A DNA stretch of 25,190 nt from the IMG/VR virus record IMGVR_UViG_2695420597_000002. One strand, 5' to 3'. The stretch's first letter is position 1. Every line of letters begins with the position of its first letter. This DNA comes from a virus. Taxonomy: Duplodnaviria; Heunggongvirae; Uroviricota; Caudoviricetes. Positions 21,430 through 24,400 of this stretch are shown here, one piece after another. Made by a program: the position numbers.

Positions 21430-24400
21430 TCATCCTCTCCGGATAAGGCACGGGCGTAATCTGCCAGTGTTTTCTTGTTGGTTGCTGCACCATCCTCTTC
21501 CTGCAGGCTCGCCAGCAGTGCACTGAGATCCAGCTGCCAGCGGGAAATACTGATGCGCAGCGCCGCCAGCGCATAAACGAAGCAGTCGAGCGCCTCATTG
21601 CGTCGCTTTTTGCTGTCCCACAGTATTTTTTTCCTGCCATCCACCCATTTTTCGACCTGCTCTTCAGCAGTCAGCTGCTGCGCTTCGGTCAGATCAAAAA
21701 TATCCGGGTTATTCGGGAAGTGAACGGCACCGGGAAGCGGTTCATCCCCTTCCGGCGTCAGTGTGAAGCGGTTATAAATCTGCTCTTTCGCGGTATCCGT
21801 ACCGATTTCGGTAAGGTAAACCCCGTTTTTGTTTCGCTTACGAGGCATGCTGGCCACCGGCTTACCGTAGACGGATGCCCCTTTAATGGGGATCACCCGG
21901 AACAGCCCATGCTTTTTCGAGCGTTCATACACAATGGTCGGGTCAATCCCGCCAATATCCCAGCAGATACGGGATATCGACATTTCTGCACCATTCCGGC
22001 GGGTATAGGTTTTATTGATGGCCTCATCCACACGCAGCAGCGTCTGTTCATCGTCGTGGCGGCCCATAATAATCTGCCGATCAATCAGCCAGCTTTCCTC
22101 ACCCGGCCCCCATCCCCATACGCGCATTTCGTAGCGATCCCGCTGGGAGTCGATACCGGCGGTCAGGTAAGCCACACGGTCAGGAACGGGCGCTGAATAA
22201 TGCTCTTTCCGCTCTGCCATCACTTCAGCATCCGGACGTTCGCCAATTTTCGCCTCCCACGTCTCACCGAGCGTGGTGTTTACGAAGGTTTTACGTTTTC
22301 CCGTATCCCCTTTCGTTTTCATCCAGTCTTTGACAATCTGCACCCAGGTGGTGAACGGGCTGTACGCTGTCCAGATGTGAAAGGTCACACTGTCAGGTGG
22401 CTCAATCTCTTCACCGGATGACGAAAACCAGAGAATGCCATCACGGGTCCAGATCCCGGTCTTTTCGCAGATATAACGGGCATCAGTAAAGTCCAGCTCC
22501 TGCTGGCGGATGACGCAGGCATTATGCTCGCAGAGATAAAACACGCTGGAGGGGTCATCCGGCGTCCATTTGAGGCCAAACGGCGTCTCTTTGTCGCCAA
22601 ATTTAAGATACTGCTCCTCCCCGCAGTGCGGGCAGGCAACATGAAAACGCATAAAATGCGGGGATTCACTGGCTGCACGCTCAATCTGGCAGGTGCCTCT
22701 CACTTTGGGCGTGGAGCCACGGATGGACTTTGGCCAGACCGAGCCTTCAATACGTTTGTCGCCAAGGAACGTCGGAGAGCCTTCCTGTTCAATATCCTCA
22801 TCAAAGGCAGCAAGTTCATCATAACCCGCCACATCCACCGACTTTTCACGGTAGTTTTTTGCCGCTTTACCGCCCAGGCACCAGAAGCCACGACCATTGG
22901 AAAAACGCTTCATAGTGAGCGTGTTATCCCGGTGCTTTTTGCCATACCACGGAGCCAGCGCCAGCAGCGACGGAATATCGCGGATGGTCGGCTCAACGTG
23001 GGTTTTCATAAAGTTCTCGGCATCACCATCCGTCGGCAACCAGATAAGTGTGTTGCGCTGCTTATGCTCTATAAAGTAGGCATAAACACCCAGCAGCATT
23101 TTGGAATAACCGACACGGGCAGACTTCACCACATTCACCTCACGGATGTAGTCGCTGCCCATCGCATTCATGATGGCCCGCTGAAAGGGCAGTGTTTCCC
23201 AGCGCCCTTCCTGGTATGCGGATTCTTTCGGGAGATAGTAATTAGCATCCGCCCATTCAACGGCGGTCTGTGGCTCCGGCCTGAACAGTGAGCGAAGCCC
23301 GGCGCGGACAAAATGCCGCAGCCTGTTAACCTGACTGTTCGATATATTCACTCAGCAACCCCGGTATCAGTTCATCCAGCGCGGCTGCTTTGTTCATGGC
23401 TTTGATGATATCCCGTTTCAGGAAATCAACATGTCGGTTTTCCAGTTCCGGAAAACGCCGCTGCACCGACAGGGGGATCCCGTCGAGAATACTGGCAATT
23501 TCACCTGCGATCCGCGACAGCACGAAAGTACAGAATGCGGTTTCCACCACTTCAGCGGAGTCTCTGGCATTTTTCAGCTCCTGTGCGTCGGCCTGCGCAC
23601 GCGTAAGTCGATGGCGTTCGTACTCAATAGTCCCTGGCTGGAGATCTGTCTCGCTGGCCTGCCGCAGTTCTTCAACTTCCCGGCGCAGCTTTTCGTTCTC
23701 AATTTCAGCATCCCTTTCGGCATACCATCTTATAACGGCGGCAGAGTCATAAAGCACCTCATTACCCTTGCCACCGCCTCGCAGAACGGGCATTCCCTGT
23801 TCCTGCCAGTTCTGAATGGTACGGATACTCGCACCGAAAATGTCAGCCAGCTGCTTTTTGTTGACTTCCATTGTTCATTCCACGGACAAAAACAGAGAAA
23901 GGAAACGACAGAGGCCAAAAAGCCCGTTTTCAGCACCTGTCGTTTCCTTTCTTTTCAGGGGGTGTTTTAAATAAAAACATTAGGTTACGGCGAAGAAGAA
24001 CGGAAACGCCTTAAACCGGAAAATTGTCATAAATAGCGAAAACCCGCGCGCCTTCCGCCCCGTAACCTGTCGGATCGCCGGAAAGGACCCGCAAAATGAT
24101 AATAATTATCATCTACATGTCACAACGTGCATCTACGCCATCAAACCACGTCAAATAATCAATTATGACGCAGGTATCGTATTAATTGATCTGCATCAAC
24201 TTAACGTAAAAACAACTTCAGACAATACAAATCAGCGACACTGAATACAGGGCAACCTCATGTCAACGAAGAACAGAACCCGCAGAACAACAACCCGCAA
24301 CATCCGCTTTCCTAACCAAATGATTGAACAAATTAACATCGCTCTTGTTCAAAAAGGGTCCGGGAATTTCTCAGCCTGGGTCATTGAAGCCTGCCGCCGG

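What the first reader, a model, noticed from the sequence alone, without database searches (positions are those of the whole stretch)
24049..24060. Cohesive-end core of cosN differs from lambda at 5 of 12 positions while flanking cos is lambda-like
On the minus strand the 12 nt between the conserved cosQ flank (CGTAACCTGTCGGATC) and cosB flank (CGCGGGTTTTCGC) read GGGCGGAAGGCG, whereas lambda has GGGCGGCGACCT. The left half is kept and the right half replaced. Terminase nicking depends on cosN, so this is either a real variant cohesive end, a sign the prophage can no longer package, or a local sequence error.
Basis: partly seen in the sequence, partly recalled or inferred. Interest (0 to 1): 0.55.

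Follow-up and report, generated by a model that had tools for sequence, protein, structure and literature searches.

The report
Natural variant lambda sticky end
The odd 12-base "sticky end" in this lambda-like prophage is a real, recurrent natural variant, about 2% of such sites in E. coli, and it changes only the half of the cutting site that published work shows lambda's packaging enzyme tolerates, so it is ordinary.

Summary
On the minus strand, 24060..24049 reads GGGCGGAAGGCG where lambda has GGGCGGCGACCT. There are five differences, all in bp 7-12. It is not a sequencing error: the same 12-mer occurs at 170 places in 159 of 5426 complete E. coli genomes (canonical: 8406 places), in 78 IMG/VR viral contigs and in two GenBank phage records. 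Nothing suggests a packaging defect. cosQ, the CG pairs flanking both nick sites, the left half of cosN, and R3, R2 and R1 are identical to lambda. Nu1 is 98% and gpA 99% identical, and all head genes are intact. The allele sits on at least five left-flank types and two cosB types. It is the majority allele in two lineages, and it does not co-vary with terminase substitutions. Published lambda genetics (Feiss et al. 2015, PMC4669245) shows that bp 7-12 tolerate change and that natural variants (N15, phiD326, Gifsy-1) fall there. This is therefore another member of a known class of right-half cosN alleles. It differs more from lambda than the published ones and is predicted not to anneal with canonical ends. 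Actual nicking and the virion ends were not tested.

The parts
24049..24060 (-). cosN cohesive-end core, the 12 bp between the two predicted nick sites: GGGCGGAAGGCG (lambda has GGGCGGCGACCT)
   Evidence: The nick positions are inferred from lambda and were not measured.
24049..24054 (-). Variable right half of cosN (bp 7-12): AAGGCG instead of CGACCT. It differs at bp 7, 8, 9, 10 and 12, and C11 is retained.
   Evidence: Published tolerance of bp 7-12: PMC4669245.
24055..24062 (-). Conserved left half of cosN (GGGCGG) plus the CG pair 5' of the top-strand nick, identical to lambda
24047..24048 (-). Conserved CG pair flanking the bottom-strand nick
   Evidence: Conservation of these pairs is stated in PMC4669245.
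24084..24090 (-). cosQ (GGGTCCT), the packaging-termination element, identical to lambda
   Evidence: The identity of cosQ as lambda bp 48473-48479 is from my own knowledge (Wieczorek and Feiss 2001).
23996..24011 (-). cosB R3 (lambda bp 50-65), the TerS-binding site that positions TerL. All 16 bp match lambda.
   Evidence: R3 extent from PMC9026076.
23953..23990 (-). Spacer between R3 and R2, where lambda has the IHF site I1. It differs from lambda at 5 of 38 positions.
   Evidence: The exact bounds of I1 were not determined here.
23937..23952 (-). cosB R2, all 16 bp matching lambda bp 109-124
23896..23911 (-). cosB R1, all 16 bp matching lambda bp 151-166
23326..23871 (-). Nu1 (TerS), 181 aa, 178/181 identical to lambda
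21426..23351 (-). A (TerL), 641 aa, 637/641 identical to lambda (T151S, D185E, L404R, T466I)

Best explanation
This is a functional lambda-type cos site carrying a natural allele of the cohesive-end sequence. TerS (Nu1) binds R3/R2/R1 of cosB and positions TerL (gpA). TerL nicks the top strand after the conserved ...TTACG and nicks the bottom strand 12 bp away. That would give virion DNA with 5' overhangs of GGGCGGAAGGCG and its complement. The bottom-strand nick is placed by the TerS anchor at cosB rather than by base-specific reading of bp 7-12, so the right half of the 12-mer is free to vary. This allele (AAGGCG for CGACCT) is one outcome of that freedom. Both ends of a chromosome are cut from the same allele, so they remain complementary and the phage can circularise normally. 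The sequence, conservation, distribution and lack of terminase co-variation are shown here. Nicking, overhang length and viability are inferred.
For: (1) The differences are confined to bp 7-12. The left half, both flanking CG pairs, cosQ, R3, R2 and R1 are identical to lambda. (2) Nu1 is 178/181 and gpA 637/641 identical to lambda. All lambda head and tail genes from Nu1 to J are present at 82-100% aa identity. (3) The identical 12-mer is at 170 places in 159 complete E. coli genomes, against 8406 canonical places. It is also in 78 IMG/VR contigs, in phage records PhiR46_1 and YDC107_1, and in ~46-kb N15-type plasmid prophages. (4) It occurs on at least five left-flank types and two cosB types. 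In scans that left the 12-mer free, it is the majority allele in one lineage (18 of 26) and the only allele in another (8 of 8). Recurrence of one exact 12-mer on flanks that are otherwise very different (60-85 ungapped mismatches over the left 120 nt) argues that the site is maintained. (5) The gpA substitutions in the window do not track the allele. The lambda-type combination T151/L404/T466 occurs with both alleles. (6) Literature: mutations in bp 7-12 have minimal phenotype, C11G has none, lambda TerL uses cosN-N15 and cosN-lambda equally well, and the natural variants phiD326/N15 (bp 9, 12) and Gifsy-1 (bp 8, 9, 11) fall in the same half (PMC4669245). mEp213/LLS is GGGCGGCGCGCT (PMC12315714). 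(7) Both 12-mers have 10/12 G+C and similar predicted duplex Tm, 46.3 vs 47.8 C.
Against: No virion ends, nicking assay or burst size exists for this allele. With five changes it is further from lambda than any variant tested experimentally (N15 has two). The source paper for PhiR46_1 was not found, so its status as a plaque-forming phage rests only on the GenBank record, which names a propagation host. No phage record in the collection starts with this 12-mer, so no termini have been deposited for it. The 78-contig scan required the exact variant and so cannot by itself show conservation. Only the N12 scans are unbiased. The window's own prophage could be defective for other reasons: one 8-N gap lies in H, and only the late region is in the window.
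Confidence: 0.85

Rival explanations
1. Local sequencing or assembly error in the 12-mer.
For: The window does contain one assembly or masking artefact, an 8-N run at 12473-12480.
Against: The identical 12-mer is in 159 complete genomes, 78 viral contigs and 2 phage records. Four contigs from other isolates are identical to the window over 912 bp around cos. The N run is 11.5 kb away.
Confidence: 0.01
2. A decayed cos site: the prophage is a remnant that can no longer be cut or packaged, and the right half of cosN has drifted.
For: Many E. coli lambdoid prophages are defective, and only the late region is visible in the window. No experimental data exist for this allele.
Against: Drift would not give five changes in 6 bp with 1.8% background divergence. 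It would not produce the same exact 12-mer on many diverged backgrounds. Every other cos element and all head and terminase genes are intact. The allele is also carried by complete ~46-kb N15-type phage-plasmids.
Confidence: 0.04
3. The allele changes where the bottom strand is nicked. The new right half creates a CGCGCG run (GGCG|CG|CGGG) that offers alternative 'CG' nick contexts, so the overhang could be 10 or 14 nt rather than 12.
For: In the variant the CG dinucleotide that normally flanks the nick is repeated three times across the boundary. TerL's endonuclease has low intrinsic sequence specificity (PMC9026076).
Against: Nick position in lambda is measured from R3 (Higgins and Becker 1994, cited in PMC4669245). 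The cosN-to-R3 spacing here is identical to lambda.
Confidence: 0.05
4. The allele is maintained by selection as a cohesive-end 'compatibility group'. Chromosomes cut at a variant cos at one end and a canonical cos at the other cannot circularise. That would limit productive mixed packaging between co-resident lambdoid phages that share a terminase specificity.
For: The distribution is close to bimodal: two major alleles five differences apart, with only rare intermediates (GGGCGGCAGGCG, GGGCGGAGACCT, GGGCGTCAGGCG). A 2-bp mismatch already lowers yield fourfold (PMC4669245). Most E. coli genomes also carry canonical cos sites.
Against: No direct test was made, and the sampling is biased by the search patterns. 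Neutral variation plus modular recombination at cos explains the same data. Published opinion is that bp 7-12 are not under selection.
Confidence: 0.1

Closest known systems
Bacteriophage lambda cos (cosQ-cosN-cosB; NC_001416)
   Same: cosQ, the cosN left half, the flanking CG pairs, R3, R2, R1, the spacing, and Nu1/A (98-99% aa) are the same.
   Different: bp 7, 8, 9, 10 and 12 of the cohesive end differ. There are also 8 differences (7 substitutions and one 1-bp deletion) in the 178 bp between cosN and the Nu1 start, none in an R site.
Natural right-half cosN variants: N15 and phiD326 (GGGCGGCGTCCG), Gifsy-1 (bp 8, 9, 11), mEp213/LLS (GGGCGGCGCGCT)
   Same: In all of them variation is confined to bp 7-12, with GGGCGG and the flanking CG pairs kept. 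N15's variant is cut by lambda TerL as efficiently as lambda's own.
   Different: This allele differs from lambda at five positions rather than two or three. It has not been tested experimentally, and it was not found in the searchable literature. The dedicated survey (Vahanian et al. 2017, Virology 509:140) could not be read.
Escherichia phage PhiR46_1 (PV340565) and YDC107_1 (CP025712), N15-type telomere phage-plasmids with lambda-type head and tail genes
   Same: They have the exact same 12-mer and lambda-type cosB, Nu1 and A.
   Different: Their left (cosQ-side) flank differs (…CCGGCAGGCTACG), and they have a plasmid-prophage lifestyle (telL/telR, ParAB). The window's element has the flanks typical of integrated lambda-like prophages.

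Membership tests
Lambda-type cos site | cosN with the conserved left half GGGCGG and 5'-CG-3' pairs flanking both nick positions, 12 bp apart | tested here: met
Lambda-type cos site | cosQ (GGGTCCT) upstream of cosN at lambda spacing | tested here: met
   (24090..24084)
Lambda-type cos site | cosB with R3, R2 (inverted) and R1 at lambda spacing from cosN | tested here: met
   all three 16-mers are identical to lambda, with R3 at bp 50-65
Lambda-type cos site | Adjacent terminase genes Nu1 and A of lambda packaging specificity | tested here: met
   (98% and 99% identity)
Lambda-type cos site | Terminase actually introduces staggered nicks that give 12-nt 5' overhangs | not testable with these tools
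   Needs virion DNA end sequencing or an in vitro cos-cleavage assay
Tolerated natural right-half cosN alleles (N15 / phiD326 / Gifsy-1 class) | Differences from lambda restricted to bp 7-12 | tested here: met
   positions 7, 8, 9, 10 and 12
Tolerated natural right-half cosN alleles (N15 / phiD326 / Gifsy-1 class) | No matching change needed in TerL, i.e. the terminase is not cosN-specific | tested here: met
   both alleles occur with the lambda-type gpA combination T151/L404/T466, and T151S and T466I occur with either allele. This is comparative evidence only.
Tolerated natural right-half cosN alleles (N15 / phiD326 / Gifsy-1 class) | Carried by viable, packaging-proficient phages | tested here: inconclusive
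   PhiR46_1 is deposited as a complete phage genome with a named host, ECOR13, but no paper or termini data were found

The most novel reading that the evidence does not exclude
The two major cosN alleles (…CGACCT and …AAGGCG) may be cohesive-end compatibility types kept apart by selection. Under this reading, chromosomes with one end of each type fail to circularise, which would partly isolate lambdoid phages that otherwise share terminase, cosB and head genes. Occasional resolution of mismatched annealed ends would move the 12-mer between backgrounds exactly at the nick sites. That would explain why allele-discordant pairs are identical on one side of cosN only.
Probability: 0.1. Interest if true: 0.5.

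Novelty: new member of a known kind. Interest (0 to 1): 0.2.

Why it matters
It matters little for the biology of packaging, because it fits the established rule that the right half of cosN is free to vary. It has three practical uses. Tools that recognise lambda-like cos sites by the canonical 12-mer would miss about 2% of E. coli sites, and most sites in some lineages. With five mismatches to lambda it would be a more stringent test of that rule than any natural variant tested so far. It is also a natural substrate for asking how many cohesive-end mismatches a lambdoid chromosome can tolerate.

Tried and rejected
(1) Co-evolution of the terminase endonuclease with the allele. gpA L404R and T466I lie next to residues I recall as catalytic (D401, D465). 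However, T466I and T151S occur with both alleles, and L404R is in only 3 of 14 variant carriers that have a full A gene. Rejected. (2) H as a pseudogene, as evidence of a defective prophage. The apparent frameshift is an 8-N run replacing 93 nt. Rejected as evidence. (3) The 'Lambda_ev' phages, whose left flank is 99.4% identical to the window. They have canonical ends, so they are uninformative. (4) N15 as the source of the allele. N15 itself is GGGCGGCGTCCG, with different flanks, so it is not the same allele. (5) Literature search for the 12-mer found only an unrelated plant paper. Searches for the PhiR phage paper found nothing. Vahanian et al. 2017 is not held. A search for the canonical 12-mer returned mostly single-molecule methods and other unrelated papers. 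(6) Small inversion or templated origin of AAGGCG from CGACCT, checked by eye: no reverse-complement or local-repeat relationship was found.

Full report
OBSERVATION. The minus strand of the window reads ...GGGTCCTTTCCGGCGATCCGACAGGTTACG GGGCGGAAGGCG CGCGGGTTTTCGCTATTTATGACAATTTTCCGGTTTAAGGCGTTTCCGTTCTTC..., with the 12-mer at exactly 24060..24049. The lambda reference NC_001416 begins GGGCGGCGACCT CGCGGGTTTTCGC. Phage 2H10 has identical immediate flanks and a canonical cosN. Against it, the 341-bp region differs at 11 positions, five of them inside one 6-bp stretch, with a 1.8% background rate (P about 1e-8). The cluster is real and is not random point divergence.

WHAT SURROUNDS IT. The window is the late region of a lambda-like prophage on the minus strand. 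tblastn with lambda proteins finds Nu1, A, W, B, C, D, E, FI, FII, Z, U, V, G, H, M, L, K, I and J in lambda order. Identity is 92-100% from Nu1 to I and 82% for J. Nu1 is 178/181 and gpA 637/641 identical to lambda. The other cos elements are intact. cosQ (GGGTCCT) is at 24090..24084. CG pairs flank both predicted nick sites. R3 (23996-24011), R2 (23937-23952) and R1 (23896-23911) each match lambda at 16/16, with lambda spacing from cosN. The only apparent lesion, a frame change in the tape-measure gene H, is an artefact: eight N at 12473-12480 stand in for 93 nt.

IS IT AN ERROR? No. A 51-nt query centred on the variant cannot seed on a canonical site. It hits 170 places in 159 of 5426 complete E. 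coli genomes, including 16 places on plasmids, those listed being about 36-68 kb. The same design with the canonical 12-mer hits 8406 places in 4484 genomes. The variant is therefore about 2% of lambda-like cosN sites. An exact 21-nt pattern finds it in 78 IMG/VR contigs, four of which are identical to the window over 912 bp. Two GenBank phage records carry it, PhiR46_1 and YDC107_1. PhiR46_1 is an N15-type telomere phage-plasmid (telL/telR, ParAB) with a lambda-type head and tail module.

HOW THE ALLELE IS DISTRIBUTED. The 12-mer occurs on at least five left-flank types and on two cosB types, and identical flank haplotypes carry either allele. One 60-nt left haplotype is canonical 34 times and variant 10 times. 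I also ran scans that left the 12 bases free. Lambda-like flanks gave 125 canonical sites (this count includes phage 2H10, fetched separately) and one new variant site. Left-flank family '...TGGCCTGCCACG' gave 18 variant and 5 canonical, plus GGGCGGAGACCT, GGGCGGCAGGCG and GGGCGGGAGCGT. Family '...CTGAGCTCTCACG' gave 8 of 8 variant. So the variant is a minority allele overall but the main one in some lineages, and single-step intermediates exist. Some allele-discordant pairs are identical on one side only. L213 and L030 share all 300 nt on the left. PhiR46_1 and L012 share all 600 nt on the right but differ at 86 of 300 on the left. The 12-mer therefore travels with either arm, as expected if cos is a module junction.

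DOES THE TERMINASE CHANGE WITH IT? The window's gpA differs from lambda at T151S, D185E, L404R and T466I. Two of these lie beside residues I recall as endonuclease catalytic residues. Among 58 loci with a full A gene, T151S and T466I occur with both alleles, L404R is in only 3 of 14 variant carriers, and the lambda-type combination T151/L404/T466 occurs with both alleles. There is no sign of co-adaptation.

MECHANISM. From the lambda literature, TerS bound at cosB anchors TerL, and mutations in bp 7-12 have minimal effect. G2C lowers yield tenfold, whereas the symmetric C11G has no phenotype. Lambda TerL gives equal bursts with cosN-lambda and cosN-N15. Natural variants fall in the right half: phiD326 and N15 at bp 9 and 12, Gifsy-1 at bp 8, 9 and 11. 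The left half, the flanking CG pairs and cosQ are conserved (PMC4669245). mEp213/LLS is GGGCGGCGCGCT (PMC12315714). The window's allele obeys every one of these rules, and it keeps C11. The best explanation is therefore a working cos that yields 5' overhangs of GGGCGGAAGGCG and its complement. Both ends are cut from the same allele, so they remain complementary. G+C content (10/12) and predicted Tm (46.3 vs 47.8 C) are close to lambda's. The nicking itself, the overhang length and viability are inferred, not shown.

RIVALS. Sequence error is excluded. Decay of a dead site is very unlikely, given the clustering, the recurrence on diverged backgrounds and the intact surroundings. A shifted bottom-strand nick within the new CGCGCG run cannot be excluded without end sequencing. 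It is disfavoured because nick position is set by distance from R3, which is unchanged. A selective role as a cohesive-end compatibility type is possible: a 2-bp mismatch already costs fourfold in yield, and five mismatches should be much worse. It is untested, and modular recombination plus neutral variation explains the data equally well.

COMPARISON AND NOVELTY. This is a lambda-type cos by every sequence criterion tested. It belongs to the published class of tolerated right-half cosN variants. The specific 12-mer was not found in the searchable literature. The dedicated survey of natural cosN variation (Vahanian et al. 2017) could not be read, and an allele this common may well be listed there. 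I rate it a new member of a known kind, of low interest.

Noticed in passing
window 12473-12480: A run of eight N inside the tape-measure gene H replaces 93 nt of lambda-like sequence, so H appears as two ORFs in different frames (13520-12420 and 12288-11044). This is an assembly gap or masking, not a real frameshift.
   Followed up: yes
window 4560-5073 (minus strand): The Lom-family ORF is only about 38% identical to lambda Lom, and its last 14 residues match lambda in a different reading frame. It may be frameshifted or a mosaic allele.
   Followed up: no
window 1409-4498 (minus strand): A single 1029-aa side-tail-fibre ORF covers what lambda PaPa has as the split orf-401/orf-314. It looks like an intact Stf, followed by a Tfa that is 93% identical to lambda's. 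J is 1165 aa and only 82% identical to lambda J, with gaps in the alignment.
   Followed up: partly
window 21426-23351 (gpA residue 404): The gpA L404R substitution lies three residues from D401. Among the loci sampled it was seen only in variant-cosN carriers (3 of 14, including the window). It is not required for the allele, but the association was not tested on a larger sample.
   Followed up: partly
window 25130-25190: In all but the top listed E. coli hit, the match to the cosQ-side region does not extend into the last ~61 nt of the window (query 62-1130 aligned). This may be a module junction.
   Followed up: no
L217 1-33 (LR597635.1, phage Lambda_ev099): This public phage record begins with what I recognise, from memory, as a Nextera transposase adapter (TCGTCGGCAGCGTCAGATGTGTATAAGAGACAG) where the cos end should be.
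   Followed up: no
L134, L135, L136 (genome-contig hits): The pattern combining lambda-like cos flanks with a free 12-mer matches contigs labelled Raphidiopsis brookii, Aeromicrobium sp. and an Alicyclobacillus fastidiosus plasmid. Lambda or cosmid DNA contamination in those assemblies is a likely cause.
   Followed up: no
L166 and L174 (IMGVR_UViG_3300045988_113976): One 56-kb viral contig holds two copies of the variant cosN pattern, reported on opposite strands.
   Followed up: no
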